Positions 24,001-48,000 of a stretch of 64,000 bases of DNA are shown piece after piece. Made by a program: the position numbers. Each line of letters opens with the position of its first letter. The stretch's first letter is position 1. Origin of the DNA: Ylistrum balloti (taxonomy: Eukaryota); assembly GCF_031769215.1 (NCBI RefSeq), contig NW_026782299.1, positions 3,844,001 through 3,908,000 of the forward strand, read 5' to 3'.

Positions 24001-27000
24001 CCTTTCCACCATGCATTCTGCTTCTCGGATTTTTGGTTTGCCAGAAATGTTTTTTGAAGGTTTACCAAAAATGCATGTCAAAGTCATTTCGTTTTGCAAT
24101 CATTATATGACTTTATCTAAGAGACTTATCAAGCCTTTTGGCTTATCAGAAGAAATTTACCCATGTGAACTTGAATATGGGTATAGGCCATTTCTTTTCA
24201 CAAACCTAATCGAATTCCATCTCAGAGACTTACCTGCCAGCCTTATAGGCCTTGATGTTAGTCAGGAATCCTTGCTTTAAGATTTTGAACAAAAATTATC
24301 CTGTGACGTTATATATGGGTCAAGGTCATTTCTTTTTTGCAAACTGTTGGGCTTCATCCCAGAAACCTACCAGCCAAATATATCATTTTCATTAAATGTT
24401 GACACTTGCACTCCAGGTACATAGATTTCATTTTTGTGTCTTATTGCTCACGTTCAGAGCAAATAGGAGGATAGAAGAAAATTATCAAACTAATAAAGAC
24501 TTTATGAAGATCTTACAATGGTGGTTGTCAGATCCCTTTGGGTACCTCTTTCTAGAGAGCTCGTAATCGGTTTTCCTTAGGCTGGTTATATTTGCTTAGT
24601 GTAATAAAATAAGAGACAACTATTGATAATTCAATAACCATTTTTTATTAATATAACATATTTAAAATTTATTGATAAATATCACAAAATCAATAATGTG
24701 AAAATACATCATTTAATTTTTAATATCAGTAGACAATATGAATTGCACCAAATCAGATAGAAACTGAATAGAGTAGAAACCTTCATTGTTATTTTTCAAA
24801 AACTACAAACAAATAAAAATTTGGAAGATGTTGCACTTTATCAAAAAAATACACCAGAATGTCTTAAATGCTATAAAATAAAAATAGAGTAGTATATATA
24901 TATATATATATATATGTAATAGCCTCCTATATAATATCACCCCATATAATTATCACATCCCCATACTATATTACCCATATATCTTATGTATCCCATACAC
25001 TGTATAAAGTATTACATCCCAATATCATTAAGATGTTAAATTACTGTATAAAATTAGATTATAGAAATTGGTCTACATGCTTTCTGTTAAAAAAATATCC
25101 TGTAAATAGAATAGATGCTCTCAAAATTTGTAAAAACATTTTAAGAAGACAAAGAAAAAAGAGAGGATAATTGATTACATTAAAATAATGTCTCAATCAA
25201 GAATATTGCATACCTTTTGGTTAAGTATTTGCAAATGACCTAAAAAATCTGGGCATTTTTTATCAAGAAAGTAAATGATTGAACATGACAATGTCAGTGC
25301 CATATTTATCCTGCAATAAGGCCAGGGAGTCAACCAACTCTGACTCGAGGTCTGGCCTTATTGCAGGACAATAAAATAGCATTACATTGTATGTCTACTT
25401 AAAAAGCCTTAATATCATACTTTACCAAAGATACATGGTTGGACTTACTACCATGTGTTACTTATTGCCTGATACACATTATTTTGTTGATCACATCTCT
25501 GATTTTTCTCTGTAACACTATAACAAAGTGAGTTAAATTCTGATTATCTCCATAGCCACTTAAAATCTGATTATAATATAAATGTCTTAATAATTACTAT
25601 TCTCTATTTTTCCTTCTGAAAATATGTACAAATATCCACACTTTTCATTTACATATATTTTGCTGCTCTACGATGTTTTTGTTTTGTATCATTAAATTTT
25701 GATATATTTCTTCTCTTCCTTATTACACAAAAAAATATATTATTAAAAAACTGTGAAGTTATTTATATCTGATATTGTTAAATACTAAAAAGCTAAAATC
25801 TTAGAATTTCCATATTGTCATCATCAGCGCAAAGTAAAAAGTTATCAAAGTTAAAAAACTGCTCTAACCGTAAAAAGTTGTATATTTATGTAAACAAATT
25901 CTTCAGAATATTCTTTGTGGTTGGTTTCCATGTCTTCATCTGCCTGAGACTGAAGTAGCCATACTTGAACTTGCTGTAGCTGTGTTTGCCTGTGTAACCG
26001 TAGGCAATACCTTCCTCTGTAGCTTTGTGGGTCTGCACCAGTTTTTGTCCTGAAATCAAGCACCAAAAGTAAATACCAAGGATTTCTAAAATACTGAGTT
26101 TATTGTAAAAATCATCTGATATCAATCTAAGTAAACAGTGTTCCTTCAGATTAGCATGATAGTTACATGTCATGTTTTAGCTTACTAACCTTTTTCAAAG
26201 CTGAGATGGGTGTTATCTGCAGAACTGTGTGTCACAAGAGCTTTAAGTAGACAACATTGTTCTAGGGGTACACCATGGTAAGGGTATTGGGCCACGTCCC
26301 TGTGAGAAATGTCCTGCTCCATCTTGTTTACAGAGACTTGCTCTTCCTCACTGCTTACCCATCCTTGTCTACAGACACGAGGTGGTGGAGCATCATCTTC
26401 TTCATCTGAATCCTGGGAGGGCATAGAAAATTTCCTTACAGGTGTTTCCTTGTCAACATGTTGTGGAGACATTTTTGTACGGAGTTCCTGAAGTGTGGAA
26501 TTTTCCTCTTTTGTGACTGATTTTCTCACTTTCTTGGCATGTTTTGATTGTTCCATCACATCATCACTGATCTCTTGTCTAGATATTTTGTTTTCTCCTG
26601 TTGTTTTAGTTTTAGAATGTTTTCTCATGTGGTCATTGGAACATTCACCATCTGATTCTGAAAAAAACGAAATAATGGAAATTCAAATTCAAATTTAAAG
26701 AACTTGCTTAATTTCCTTTTTTGGGCTCCACCCCACAAGGTGAATTAAAAACTTGTCAAAACCAATTAATACAGATTATCTCCCTTATTTAAAGCCAAAC
26801 TAGCATCAATCCCTATTACTCATTGATTTTCTTTTTTAAACTGAACATATGGAAAAAAATGTATTTAAACGATAAAATGAAGTGATACAGATGTGATAAG
26901 AAGGGATGATACACATTCCCTATCGTGGGAACATCACTGGCAGACAAAACATGTTTATTCAATAATAATTACCATTTGAATGTTTGGAGGATGAAGACCT

Positions 27001-45000: not shown

Positions 45001-48000
45001 GAATCACTTATCCAATCACATGTATAATTCATTCCGATTGTCATCAAACTCTCAAAACTCTTTAAAGAAATTGTTAATATGTAGAATGTCAAACTCTCAA
45101 TAAAATCAGCAGTGGTAATGGACTAATGGTAACAGAAAGTGGAGAGAAAATAAAATTGGTTGGCAATCCCTCTAACTTGGGTGAAAATGGAAGAGATGAT
45201 ATATACTCTGTAACATTGTATTCCGGGCATAACAACATTATCAGTACTGATTATAGTGCCAATTCTTTATACCAGGTATCAATATCAAATTATATTGACA
45301 AGTTTTTACCTCTTGAAGATATTTTTGGCTTTCAGCTTCTTCTATCATTAAAGCCTGGCACTGTCTCAGAGATTTGTCAAGGCGATTGATCAATTCTTTT
45401 TCCAACCCTTTAAGAGTTCTCTGCTCTTTGATCTGACGGGCTGATGCATCTACGTCCAAATTGACACTAATCTGCAGAGCAGCTTGAACATTTTGTAGCT
45501 TCTTCTGACATTTTGTTAGTTGTTCACGTATCTTTGTCAATGTCTGGATTGTGAAGAAAATATTTTCATGACCAGGTTATAATATTCATTATCTTGGATA
45601 ATGAAATGATCAATTATAATTTTACACCAGAAGAAAACTTTCAATTTCATACCGAAGTAAAACTCAAAATTATAATCTAGACAAATACAATTGGAATAAC
45701 ACAATATGAAATTTTAAAAACTACCTTTTTCTCCTTTTTCAAAAGTGTGATTTTGTTTGCATGGTCATCAAGCAAGTTGGAATACTGTTTTTTCAATTCT
45801 TCTGGTCTCGTTTTTGTTGTAGGATTATCCAACCATCTGTTTTTATAAAACAGAAACATTTCATATTGAACAGAAAATAATTTCTATCTACAACAAAATG
45901 CATACAGGCAAACTGCACTTCAAATCATATGTTTTAATTTAAAACATCAATAAAAAATACTTAATGTTTCACATTTGGTTTATCAACAAGAGCATACCAC
46001 CAATATTTTATCACACTATTAATTACAAGCTAAGGACTTTCCTGAACGCTGAATTTTACCTTTTAATTGTTTCATACGGTCCATCAACTTCAGCTAATTT
46101 GGACACCATGGCCTGTTGGAGGACGACAGTACTTTTCATGTAAGCCAGGTAATTTTCCTTAAAATTCTCAAACAGGTTGTGACTTGATGCTGTGAACAAC
46201 ACCAGGTACAAAAAATGTACTTATATCAATGGAATATTGGTTTCTCTGGGACATGGAAATATTCTCCAATTGTATATTTCACTCTGTGAAGAGTTAACAG
46301 GAAAATAAGATTTTATAAAACAATAATAAGACTTTTCAAAAAATTTAATATAATGATTTTGCATAATTTCCTGGCAGTATCAATATTGACATTTTACGAA
46401 AGGAAGTTACTGTGTATGACTTCACTATATTATGAAAAGAATATATAATATACGGAATATAGTTATGACAACTCATGAACAGAGAAATTCCAAAGCTATT
46501 AACATTGTGTTAAGCAGATCTACATCACCACATGCCACGAGACCTCGAACATTACAAATGCTAAATGAAGCAACCAAGTCAATAGGCCTAGTGTTAAAAA
46601 GGCTTCATTTAGTAATCAAAAATTCCTGTGCAGATATGTTTAGAAGATCTGACATTTAGTACTTACCACTCTCATTCAATGATTTCAAAGAAGAATTATT
46701 TTGCTTTTCTATAAGTTGAAGTTGGGAAGACTCATACCCAAGTCGGTCTTTGATGATATGCTTAATATGTGCGGCTATCCTGAAATAGTTGAAAAAAATA
46801 TATTTATTGTCAGTAGACCTGGAGTTTTCTTGTAATCTTTAACTGGGACAATAGACAATAAATGTGCCTGTTCACTGGACTGGTTACGATAGAATCATAA
46901 ATATTTCATACATTCTTTTTAGATATAATGGTACCGCTTGTACTGGTTTTAGAATGCTGAATCTCGGTTGAGTATTACATACTGATGTCATGAATGCGGT
47001 CTTGAAACCTAATCATAACACTTAACATATGTTTTTACCATCAAATATTCATCTTAAAATGATAAATGACTTACTCTCGTCCCTTGACGAGACTGTCAAT
47101 TGTTTCTTCTTTCAGTATACGCATTCTACAGCTCATTTTCTTCGGAGGACTTTCAGTACACGACTCTATGATCGATTCACAAATGGAATATGGCGCCTTA
47201 GCAACCCTCCAAAAGTCACGTGCCATAGGCTAGTTGCGACATCTGCTGTTAAACTCTATGTATAAGGGAGATGACTCTTAAAATAACGTGTCCTTGTTTT
47301 ACGTGCAAATCGACTTTAGTATTAATTTTTCTTTTAACCATTAATTCAATTCCCAGTATACAAATTTTCCATTTAAATTGATTAAATTGATATAATGTAT
47401 CGAGTTTGTGCTTTTTGTAAATATTTTTTTCAAGATTTTAGATCAAATTCTATGATTAGGATGTTTTTTCTTATTTTATGAAAAATCAAACCACGGAATA
47501 AGATATATGTACATCTAACCGTCCGTTGATTTCATTCAGTGCAGTGGCGTAGCAAAAATGTGCGCTTGTTTGCGTAAGCACGCATTTGCATTCCACTGAG
47601 ATTTTTTTGTTTTTGTTTTTTTACTTTTGTTTTTTTTTTAATCGTGTTGCTTTGTTCAATAAATATGCATTTACATGCATGTATATCTATAACACCAAAC
47701 CATCATTTTGTTTTTCCGGATGTAGTACATATTTTGATACGAAATATTCAGCAATTGGGATATATTTGGTTCTGATTTTTATTGTAACAATTCTATATCC
47801 GGGTTTTAAAGTTTGTACCCGCGACACTACCAGAATGGCACCGCGTAAAATTACCAAAATTTACAACGCTAACCGAATACGTTGATCTACCACGGTTCAC
47901 AAGACAATTTAGGCAATGAAAACAAGAAGACCAGCATTTCTGATACTATGTCTGGTGACACATCTCAAGGAAAATCTCAGCGTTCTGAGTATAAGCCTCC

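What the first reader, a model, noticed from the sequence alone, without database searches (positions are those of the whole stretch)
24430..47230. Recent tandem triplication of a divergent F-BAR-SH3 gene, invisible to the ORF track
Seen: three ~8-kb head-to-tail units, each with a complete 10-exon, 568-codon frame, identical exon lengths and intact splice sites. The copies differ by point substitutions (for example EQCCLL, EQCRLL and KQCRQL just before the SH3) and by private insertions. Established: F-BAR-SH3 proteins (PSTPIP, PACSIN, nostrin and related) are dimeric membrane-curvature adaptors. Inference: this is a young, possibly copy-number-variable, lineage-specific family whose products could heterodimerise.
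Basis: partly seen in the sequence, partly recalled or inferred. Interest (0 to 1): 0.65.

Follow-up and report, generated by a model that had tools for sequence, protein, structure and literature searches.

The report
Triplicated divergent F-BAR-SH3 gene, scallop
Three head-to-tail copies of a scallop-only gene sit here; its protein escapes sequence-based domain detection but is predicted to fold as a dimeric membrane-curvature (F-BAR) module with an unusual SH3-like tail.

Summary
The triplication is real in this sequence. Three head-to-tail units lie at 24415-32805, 32806-40913 and 40914-47304. Each carries a 10-exon minus-strand gene with GT-AG introns. The window is scallop, Ylistrum balloti, not human. 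RefSeq already annotates the three genes as adjacent "uncharacterized" loci LOC132554986/7/8.

- The frames are 589, 589 and 585 codons, not 568.
- Copy 3 has a 4-nt insertion that disables the old start codon.
- The third unit lacks the spacer, so the array reads G-S-G-S-G.

"Recent" is only partly right. Exons differ by 1.0-2.4% and introns by 2.8-3.3%, but the stretch downstream of the stop codon differs by 7.7-8.5%. dN/dS is 0.19-0.27.

Pfam finds no FCH or SH3 domain. The F-BAR-SH3 reading rests on other evidence:
- An AlphaFold2 model has a confident helical core, and its Foldseek matches are almost all F-BAR domains.
- A symmetric homodimer is predicted with score 0.67 against a best control of 0.00.
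- Language-model neighbours are FCH and SH3 families.
- Weak profile hits to solved structures are all SH3.

Relatives were found only in scallops. Read depth, expression and copy-number variation stay untested.

The parts
24415..32805 (.). Tandem unit 1 (gene body G1 plus spacer S1)
   Evidence: Self-BLAST and MAFFT of the three units; repeat families.
32806..40913 (.). Tandem unit 2 (G2 plus spacer S2)
40914..47304 (.). Tandem unit 3, truncated (G3 only, no spacer). Similarity to the other units ends at about 47274-47304.
25886..31525 (-). Gene copy 1, coding part (P0001, XP_060075297.1, LOC132554986, 589 aa). Exons: 31525-31362, 31066-30954, 29772-29643, 29417-29306, 29124-28891, 28423-28311, 27663-27540, 27126-26973, 26651-26190, 26049-25886.
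   Evidence: tblastn, junctions all GT-AG, and each exon's translation found in P0001.
34250..39183 (-). Gene copy 2, coding part (P0003, XP_060075298.1, LOC132554987, 589 aa). Exons: 39183-39020, 38718-38606, 38118-37989, 37765-37654, 37472-37239, 36770-36658, 36007-35884, 35466-35313, 35015-34554, 34413-34250.
42301..47226 (-). Gene copy 3, coding part (P0004, XP_060075299.1, LOC132554988, 585 aa). Exons: 47226-47075, 46779-46667, 46189-46060, 45836-45725, 45543-45310, 44841-44729, 44078-43955, 43536-43383, 43066-42605, 42464-42301.
47216..47242 (-). Copy 3's former start codon (47242-47240). It is now out of frame after a 4-nt insertion and opens an 8-codon upstream frame that overlaps the new ATG at 47226.
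   Evidence: Alignment of the three copies and translations.
27615..31405 (-). Copy 1: exons 1 (3' part) to 7 (5' part), encoding residues 41-305, the confidently modelled helical F-BAR-like core. The same exons apply in copies 2 and 3.
   Evidence: AF2 block pLDDT 72-96, Foldseek hits to F-BAR domains, predicted dimer. Coordinates worked out by hand from the exon table, not printed by any search.
25931..26265 (-). Copy 1: end of exon 9 and exon 10, encoding residues about 511-575, the SH3-like domain.
   Evidence: PDB profile hits, Atlas neighbours, AF2 strands at pLDDT 54-70. Coordinates worked out by hand from the exon table, not printed by any search.
31578..32805 (.). Spacer S1 between copy 2 and copy 1. 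It is present only twice in the array.
39247..40913 (.). Spacer S2 between copy 3 and copy 2. It carries two private stretches, 39783-40007 and 40388-40588.
29817..30497 (-). Insertion private to unit 1, in intron 2. It has a 134-aa open frame and an (AACTT)n-like tail on the minus strand, and AATATT is repeated at both edges. I read it as a 5'-truncated non-LTR retroelement; that reading is by eye and recall, with no family hit.
   Evidence: Gap in units 2 and 3, edges, open frame, no Pfam hit.

Best explanation
This is a genuine three-gene tandem array in the scallop Ylistrum balloti. The genes belong to a family found so far only in scallops, whose protein is a highly divergent F-BAR-SH3 adaptor.

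Shown:
- Three contiguous units, each with an intact 10-exon gene under purifying selection.
- The array has the form G-S-G-S-G, with three gene bodies and two spacers.

Inferred history: one duplication created G-S-G, and unequal crossing-over between the copies then added a third. Gene conversion has since kept the gene bodies at 1-3% difference, more alike than the 3' part of the unit at about 8%.

Predicted for the protein:
- Residues about 41-305 form a bundle of long helices of the F-BAR type.
- This bundle pairs into a symmetric antiparallel dimer.
- Residues about 310-510 are a disordered, Ser/Lys/Glu-rich linker.
- Residues about 511-575 form an SH3-like beta domain.

Inferred function: the dimer binds curved membrane through its net-basic helical core, and the tail recruits partners. 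The usual SH3 aromatic pocket residues are replaced, so partner binding is probably not canonical PxxP recognition. Because the interface residues are identical in the three copies, mixed dimers should form as readily as homodimers.
For: Array:
- Searches give the units and their private indels. One search shows no N in the array.
- Genes: searches show ten exons per copy, 27 of 27 introns GT-AG, and every exon translation equal to the RefSeq proteins P0001, P0003 and P0004. One search places these at adjacent loci on one 4.06-Mb contig.

Selection (Nei-Gojobori on 578 whole codons, split codons left out):
- dN/dS is 0.26 (copies 1 v 2), 0.19 (1 v 3) and 0.27 (2 v 3), with dS of 0.026, 0.058 and 0.055.
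- The excess of synonymous change has Fisher p = 0.005, 2e-6 and 7e-5.

Heterogeneous divergence:
- Exons 1.0-2.4%, introns 2.8-3.3%, and 24415-25885 (downstream of the stop codon) 7.7-8.5%.
- Intron versus downstream gives p <= 3e-10.

Fold:
- AF2 on the 11-sequence alignment A2 gives mean pLDDT 59.3 and pTM 0.40. The 10-residue blocks covering 41-300 average 72-96, with helices 44-93, 97-124, 130-139, 147-201 and 208-303.
- Foldseek against the PDB gives 31 matches at E<=0.001. Of the 28 rows listed, 27 are F-BAR/EFC-type domains: PACSIN1/2/3, GAS7, FBP17, Hof1p, GMIP, FCHO2, Imp2, CIP4 and PSTPIP1. The best is 2x3v_A at E 2e-5, with TM by target 0.37-0.63 over 257-337 columns across those 27 rows.

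Dimer: two copies of residues 1-340 score 0.66, 0.68 and 0.67, against a best of 3 controls of 0.00. The mark was reached by 21 of 30 proteins solved as pairs of one chain and by 0 of 23 solved as single chains. The runs agree in at least 80% of contacts, partner pLDDT is at least 74, and the interface is symmetric at 49-109 plus 257-315.

Language-model neighbours:
- Residues 1-340: the ten best named clusters share FCH or its clan, top score 0.90.
- Residues 505-589: the ten best named clusters share an SH3 family or clan, and all 7 rows shown carry SH3, top score 0.89.

SH3: the A2 profile against PDB sequences gives 74 hits at E<=10. All 60 rows shown are SH3 domains or SH3-bearing chains, all matched at profile positions 484-551. 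The best are nostrin SH3 at E 0.017 and PACSIN2 SH3 at E 0.032.

Charge: the core 41-305 has 45 K+R against 37 D+E, pI 9.2.

Mixed dimers: 0 of the 21 variable positions lie in the predicted interface.
Against: - No sequence model recognises the domains. Pfam gives no FCH, IMD, BAR or SH3 hit for the nine exon-bearing open frames of copy 1 at E<=1, for P0001 and P0002 at E<=10, or for P0005-P0007 at E<=1. Only the distant paralogue P0008 has a sub-threshold SH3_2 hit (E 0.014, 15.5 bits against a cut-off of 21.8).
- The profile search of PDB sequences hits no F-BAR chain with the N-terminal part, and every SH3 hit is above E 0.01.
- The first AF2 model, built on 7 sequences, was poor: mean pLDDT 48.7 and pTM 0.21. 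The second rests on only 11 sequences, five of them from this one species.
- TM-scores to F-BAR structures are moderate, and rmsd is 5-31 A.
- The Atlas scores are at or below 0.90, which the tool calls a lead only. They share 161 and 164 features, below the 170 typical of true family members.
- The dimer pass may come from memory of solved F-BAR dimers, as the tool itself warns, and its mark was calibrated on microbes.
- The SH3-like strands are modelled at pLDDT 54-70 only.
- The protein tree pairs copies 1 and 3 (support 90/83), whereas synonymous distances make copies 1 and 2 closest. The order of the duplications is therefore unresolved.
- Nothing here measures read depth, expression, membrane binding or dimerisation.
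Confidence: 0.72

Rival explanations
1. Assembly artefact. The three units are uncollapsed haplotypes or a mis-joined repeat, and the animal has one or two copies per haplotype.
For: Exon and intron differences of 1-3% are within the range I recall for allelic differences in highly heterozygous bivalves; no call here tests that. No read data could be examined.
Against: - There are three copies, and a diploid has two haplotypes.
- The array is continuous sequence with no N.
- The copies carry private structural differences: a 681-bp insertion, 226-bp and 202-bp indels and a start-codon frameshift.
- The 3' part of the unit differs by about 8%.
- The G-S-G-S-G layout is what unequal crossing-over gives.
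Confidence: 0.1
2. The fold is F-BAR-like but the protein no longer works as a membrane-curvature adaptor. It could be a helical dimeric scaffold with another role, and its SH3-like tail is a degenerate remnant.
For: - The sequence signature of both domains is lost.
- In the HMMER alignments the family has V and H where nostrin, PACSIN2 and Src have the Y and Y/F of ALYDY/ALYSF, and I-A where nostrin has W-W.
- The four close Ylistrum paralogues have no PxxP and no NPF motif.
- RefSeq's automatic names for relatives ('FK506-binding protein 5-like', 'unc-89-like') show that nothing specific is recognised.
Against: - dN/dS of 0.19-0.27 shows constraint on the whole coding sequence.
- The core is net basic.
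- The SH3-like block is among the best conserved parts of the 11-sequence alignment, with invariant G536, Q537, H543, G553, G566, Y567 and F568.
Confidence: 0.15
3. I-BAR (IMD)-SH3 protein of the IRSp53 type rather than F-BAR.
For: With the 7-sequence profile, the best SH3 hit was the IRSp53/BAIAP2 SH3 domain 3rnj (E 0.77), aligned over 43 columns.
Against: - None of the 28 Foldseek rows listed is an IMD/I-BAR entry, and 27 are F-BAR type.
- The Atlas neighbours of residues 1-340 are FCH families.
- With the 11-sequence profile, the nostrin and PACSIN2 SH3 domains rank above IRSp53.
Confidence: 0.03

Closest known systems
PACSIN / syndapin (F-BAR, linker, C-terminal SH3)
   Same: - Same order of parts: N-terminal F-BAR-type helical domain, long disordered linker, one C-terminal SH3-type domain.
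- PACSIN1/2/3 F-BAR structures are the best Foldseek matches (E 2e-5 to 1e-4).
- The PACSIN2 SH3 is the second-best profile hit (E 0.032).
   Different: - 12-16% identity in the structural alignments.
- No Pfam FCH or SH3 hit.
- No NPF motif in any of the 11 family members; that NPF motifs mark the PACSIN linker is recalled.
- The aromatic SH3 pocket residues are replaced.
- Found only in scallops.
Nostrin (F-BAR, HR1, SH3)
   Same: - The nostrin SH3 (2yun) is the best profile hit, E 0.017 over 40 columns.
- A nostrin cluster is among the Atlas neighbours of residues 1-340, at score 0.79.
   Different: - No HR1 match.
- The hit is not significant on its own.
- Nostrin's W-W is I-A here.
PSTPIP1/2, CIP4/FBP17/TOCA-1, GAS7, FCHO2, and the yeast proteins Hof1 and Imp2 (other F-BAR proteins)
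   Same: The F-BAR domains of all of these appear among the Foldseek matches, at E 1e-4 to 5e-3 and TM by target 0.44-0.61. PSTPIP clusters score 0.88-0.89 in the Atlas.
   Different: These proteins have other partner domains or none, and I found no detectable sequence relationship.
Ordinary tandem gene arrays shaped by unequal crossing-over and gene conversion
   Same: - Head-to-tail units of 6.4-8.4 kb.
- Copies number n and spacers n-1.
- The gene body is more alike than the unit's edge.
   Different: Nothing unusual. Conversion is inferred from uneven divergence, not demonstrated.

Membership tests
F-BAR (FCH-BAR / EFC) domain proteins | Sequence match to the FCH / F-BAR models (Pfam PF00611, PF22699) | tested here: not met
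   No such hit for the exon open frames at E<=1, for P0001 and P0002 at E<=10, or for P0005-P0008 at E<=1. No F-BAR chain is hit by the family profile in PDB sequences.
F-BAR (FCH-BAR / EFC) domain proteins | Elongated bundle of long helices superposable on solved F-BAR domains | tested here: met
   The AF2 core 41-300 has block pLDDT 72-96. Foldseek gives 31 matches at E<=0.001, and 27 of the 28 listed rows are F-BAR type, with TM by target up to 0.63. This is a prediction from an 11-sequence alignment, not a solved structure.
F-BAR (FCH-BAR / EFC) domain proteins | Symmetric antiparallel homodimer through the central helices | tested here: met
   Prediction only. The score is 0.67 against a best of 3 controls of 0.00. 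The mark was reached by 21 of 30 solved pairs of one chain and by 0 of 23 single chains. The runs agree in at least 80% of contacts and partner pLDDT is at least 74. The contact sets are identical on the two copies, including residue 74 with 74. F-BAR dimers are solved, so the pass may reflect likeness rather than binding.
F-BAR (FCH-BAR / EFC) domain proteins | Basic concave face that binds acidic membranes and senses or induces curvature | not testable with these tools
   Only bulk charge could be computed: 45 K+R against 37 D+E and pI 9.2 for residues 41-305.
SH3 domain | Sequence match to the SH3 models (Pfam SH3_1, SH3_2, SH3_9) | tested here: not met
   None for the window's genes or their close relatives. 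The distant paralogue P0008 has SH3_2 at E 0.014, below the cut-off.
SH3 domain | Profile similarity to solved SH3 domains, and a small beta-barrel fold | tested here: inconclusive
   All 60 rows shown are SH3, matched at one place, but the best E is 0.017. With the smaller profile, 15 of 18 hits were SH3. The Atlas neighbours are all SH3 at 0.85-0.89. AF2 strands at 539-569 have pLDDT 54-70.
SH3 domain | Aromatic ligand pocket (the Tyr residues of ALYDY, the first Trp of W-W, and the Pro and Tyr of the 3-10 region). Which positions matter is recalled. | tested here: not met
   HMMER alignments show the family's ALVTH against ALYSF/ALYDY, and G-I-A-Y-G against nostrin's G-W-W-F-G. The C-terminal block reads GYFS in the three copies against GYFP in P0008.
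PACSIN subfamily | NPF motifs in the linker (recalled as a subfamily mark) | tested here: not met
   0 of 11 family members contain NPF.
Tandem segmental duplication | Head-to-tail repeated units in continuous sequence, each with a complete gene | tested here: met
Tandem segmental duplication | Physical copy number confirmed by reads | not testable with these tools
   No read data or second assembly of this species could be consulted.

The most novel reading that the evidence does not exclude
Scallops carry a private, fast-evolving branch of the F-BAR-SH3 adaptors. It has drifted beyond the reach of every sequence model, and its SH3 has swapped the canonical proline-binding pocket for another specificity. 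In Ylistrum balloti the close paralogues lost the linker's only RKLPxPP motif while the gene expanded to a three-gene array kept uniform by gene conversion. That would be a coupled change of ligand, pocket and dosage in a membrane-remodelling adaptor.
Probability: 0.2. Interest if true: 0.45.

Novelty: new member of a known kind. Interest (0 to 1): 0.3.

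Why it matters
It assigns a likely fold and working mode to a set of scallop proteins that public annotation calls "uncharacterized" or misnames. The F-BAR family extends to members that only structure prediction can recognise. The locus also gives a compact example of a young-looking array whose edges look older, which makes it useful for studying gene conversion and copy-number change in bivalve genomes. It is not a new kind of system.

Tried and rejected
- Pfam on the single exon open frames gave nothing.
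- Pfam on the full public proteins gave only sub-threshold coiled-coil-type noise such as DASH_Duo1, Ddi2_HDD and APG6. I give these no weight.
- The first AF2 model, on 7 sequences, was too poor to search with and was not used.
- A profile search with the 11-sequence alignment in the 5.8-billion-protein set found no new relative: 6 hits, all scallop. The word index did not even return three known members, so this is weak evidence of absence.
- The IRSp53 / I-BAR reading was raised and rejected.
- The order of the two duplications could not be resolved, because the distance and tree signals disagree.
- Pfam on eight long open frames in the flanks gave 0 families.
- No tRNA and no Rfam family was found in the window.
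- Literature: searches for the six locus and accession names gave 0 papers. 'F-BAR' plus 'scallop' gave 19 papers, and the 10 listed concern scallop-shaped membranes or unrelated topics. I saw only search listings and read no paper.
- Genome contigs holds bacteria and archaea only and was not used.

Full report
**Origin of the window.** The window has about 33% G+C and a CpG observed/expected ratio of 0.58. Its single N run, 13352-13622, lies outside the finding and was left alone. An open frame from one exon (28831-29157, minus strand) matched a RefSeq protein of the scallop Ylistrum balloti at 99% identity (taxonomy). The contig is therefore molluscan, not human, and nothing had to be held back on that ground.

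**The observation.**
- One search shows 20 direct-repeat families. Of these, 18 have three copies at start-to-start spacings of 7.65-8.39 kb, with each copy 68-99% identical to its family's reference copy. The other two are a two-copy family (D17) and an unrelated 63-bp repeat near 51.5 kb (D15).
- Self-BLAST and a MAFFT alignment place the units at 24415-32805, 32806-40913 and 40914-47304.
- The third unit is shorter. Its similarity to the others stops about 50-80 nt upstream of its coding start.
- The roughly 1.2-1.7 kb spacer (31578-32805 and 39247-40913) therefore occurs twice and the gene body three times, giving G-S-G-S-G.
- That layout is what one duplication followed by unequal crossing-over between the copies would give. 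This history is an inference.
A 681-bp insertion at 29817-30497 sits in intron 2 of unit 1. It carries a 134-aa open frame and a short-repeat tail, and AATATT is repeated at both edges. There are also a 43-bp stretch in unit 1 and two stretches of 226 and 202 bp in the spacer of unit 2.

- The exon search returned the public protein P0001 (XP_060075297.1, 589 aa).
- Its 90% cluster also holds P0003 (XP_060075298.1, 589 aa) and P0004 (XP_060075299.1, 585 aa). These are the products of the adjacent loci LOC132554986, LOC132554987 and LOC132554988 on one 4.06-Mb contig.
- tblastn of P0001 against the window gives ten pieces per unit, all on the minus strand.
- Junction placement gives GT-AG at 27 of 27 introns.
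- Translated one exon at a time, 29 of 30 exons occur letter for letter in the matching public protein. The 30th, exon 1 of copy 3, does too once its start is set at 47226.
- Copy 3 has four extra bases just after the old ATG (47242-47240). That ATG now opens an 8-codon frame ending in TGA, and the protein starts at a new ATG (MARDFW...).
- RefSeq already annotates the triplication as three separate genes. What is not annotated is what the protein is.

**Age and selection.**
- I used 578 whole codons, leaving out split codons and the changed N-terminus. Nei-Gojobori estimates are dS 0.026, 0.058 and 0.055 and dN/dS 0.26, 0.19 and 0.27 for copies 1 v 2, 1 v 3 and 2 v 3.
- The excess of synonymous change is significant, at p = 0.005, 2e-6 and 7e-5. 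All three copies have therefore evolved under constraint.
- Divergence is uneven along the unit. Exons differ by 1.0-2.4% and introns by 2.8-3.3%. The 1.47 kb downstream of the stop codon (24415-25885) differs by 7.7-8.5%, and the change falls near 25850. Intron versus downstream gives p <= 3e-10.
- Either the array is older than the gene bodies suggest and they are being homogenised by gene conversion, or the AT-rich, indel-prone 3' stretch mutates faster. I favour conversion but did not test it.
- Sites private to one copy number 107, 103 and 150 for copies 1, 2 and 3. Copy 3 is most distinct at the 5' end.
- The protein tree joins copies 1 and 3 with weak support (90/83), while distances join 1 and 2. 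The order of events is open.

**Family range.**
- phmmer of P0001 against 1.84 billion representatives found only five proteins at E<=0.001. The word-indexed search found six.
- All are from Pectinidae: Ylistrum balloti, Pecten maximus, Argopecten irradians and Mizuhopecten yessoensis.
- Ylistrum has a fourth close paralogue on another contig (P0002, 83-84% identical). It also has two distant ones of 780-790 aa, P0007 and P0008. P0008 is linked by hhalign at 94.8% probability.
- A profile search added nothing new.
- In the tree the four close Ylistrum genes form a clade (100/100), and the three tandem ones a clade within it (100/99). The expansion is therefore specific to this lineage as far as these data reach.
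- Proteins from other molluscs could have been missed if they are too divergent.

**What the protein is.** By sequence it matches nothing.
- There is no FCH, BAR, IMD, HR1 or SH3 model in Pfam for the exon frames or for the public full-length proteins.
- The family profile hits no F-BAR chain in PDB sequences.

By predicted structure the answer differs.
- AF2 on seven sequences failed, with mean pLDDT 48.7.
- On eleven sequences it gave a core covering residues 41-300 with block pLDDT 72-96. The core is built of helices 44-93, 97-124, 130-139, 147-201 and 208-303. A disordered stretch spans 310-533, and short strands lie at 539-569 with pLDDT 54-70.
- Foldseek against the PDB found 31 matches at E<=0.001. 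Of the 28 rows listed, 27 are F-BAR/EFC-type domains: PACSIN1/2/3, GAS7, FBP17, Hof1p, GMIP, FCHO2, Imp2, CIP4 and PSTPIP1.
- The best match is E 2e-5, with TM by target up to 0.63 and identity of 9-16% across those 27 rows. The first non-F-BAR entry is at rank 50.

Two further lines agree, though both are also model-based.
- The Atlas neighbours of residues 1-340 are FCH families, top score 0.90 with 161 shared features, which the tool calls a lead only.
- Two copies of residues 1-340 are predicted to pair. The score is 0.67 (runs 0.66, 0.68, 0.67), against a best of three controls of 0.00.
- That mark was reached by 21 of 30 proteins solved as pairs of one chain and by 0 of 23 solved as single chains. 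The runs agree in at least 80% of contacts, and partner pLDDT is at least 74.
- The interface is symmetric, covering residues 49-109 and 257-315, with residue 74 touching 74. This is the expected kind of interface for an antiparallel BAR-type dimer.
- The tool warns that such a pass can come from memory of solved relatives.

**The tail.**
- With the 11-sequence profile, all 60 PDB rows shown (of 74 at E<=10) are SH3 domains or SH3-bearing chains, matched at one place.
- The best are nostrin SH3 (E 0.017), PACSIN2 SH3 (E 0.032) and Src SH3. With the 7-sequence profile, 15 of 18 hits were SH3.
- The ten best named Atlas neighbours of residues 505-589 share an SH3 family or clan, and all 7 rows shown carry SH3 (scores 0.85-0.89).
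- None of these results is significant alone. Their agreement makes an SH3-type domain likely.
- It is atypical. In the HMMER alignments the family has ALVTH where SH3 domains have ALYDY or ALYSF, and G-I-A-Y-G where nostrin has G-W-W-F-G. The identification of these positions as the ligand pocket is from my own knowledge.
- No family member has an NPF motif. The four close Ylistrum paralogues have no PxxP at all, whereas the Pecten and Argopecten relatives keep one RKLP(R/C)PP and P0007 has several RKLPPPP.

**How it most likely works.** The following is inferred, not shown.
- The helical core dimerises and binds membrane through a net-basic surface (45 K+R against 37 D+E, pI 9.2).
- The long acidic and basic linker is flexible.
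- The tail recruits a partner by a non-canonical contact.
- The 21 positions that vary among the three proteins all lie outside the predicted interface.

**Verdict.**
- The F-BAR-SH3 interpretation is supported at the level of predicted fold and fails at the level of sequence membership.
- 'Lineage-specific' is supported. 'Recent' is uncertain.
- Copy-number variation, expression and physical copy number are untested.
- No paper on these genes was found (search listings only, no paper read).
- This is a new, very divergent member of a known kind, in an ordinary kind of gene array.

Noticed in passing
window 61060-63571: A 2.5-kb satellite with a 40-bp unit (also read as 84 bp), about 44-60 copies at 83-90% match.
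   Followed up: no
window 51539-51944 and 53962-54463: Two minisatellites with units of 63 bp (6.5 copies, 94% match) and 56 bp (9 copies, 93% match). The first is read through by a 118-aa repetitive open frame at 51422-51778 on the minus strand.
   Followed up: no
window 17525-18018 and 18648-19182: Arrays of 28-bp and 21-bp units in the most AT-rich part of the window (G+C 0.26 at 18001-20000).
   Followed up: no
window 57941-58984 (-): A 347-aa open frame, the longest in the window. It has a hydrophobic stretch followed by PPPY and a long Ser/Asp/Glu-rich tail, and is probably a large exon of a neighbouring gene. It has no Pfam family.
   Followed up: partly
window 29817-30497 (-): A retroelement-like fragment in intron 2 of copy 1 only, so it was inserted after the duplication. 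It has a 134-aa open frame and no Pfam hit.
   Followed up: partly
window 24415-25885 compared with 25886-31525: Divergence among the units drops from about 8% to about 3% close to the stop codon. A gene-conversion boundary is one reading, and it was not tested.
   Followed up: partly
Proteins P0005 and P0007 (other loci): RefSeq's automatic names for family members ('FK506-binding protein 5-like', 'muscle M-line assembly protein unc-89-like') look like artefacts of the low-complexity linker. Pfam finds neither an FKBP domain nor any domain above its cut-off in them.
   Followed up: partly
window 13352-13622: A run of 271 N, either an assembly gap or masked sequence. It was left untouched.
   Followed up: no
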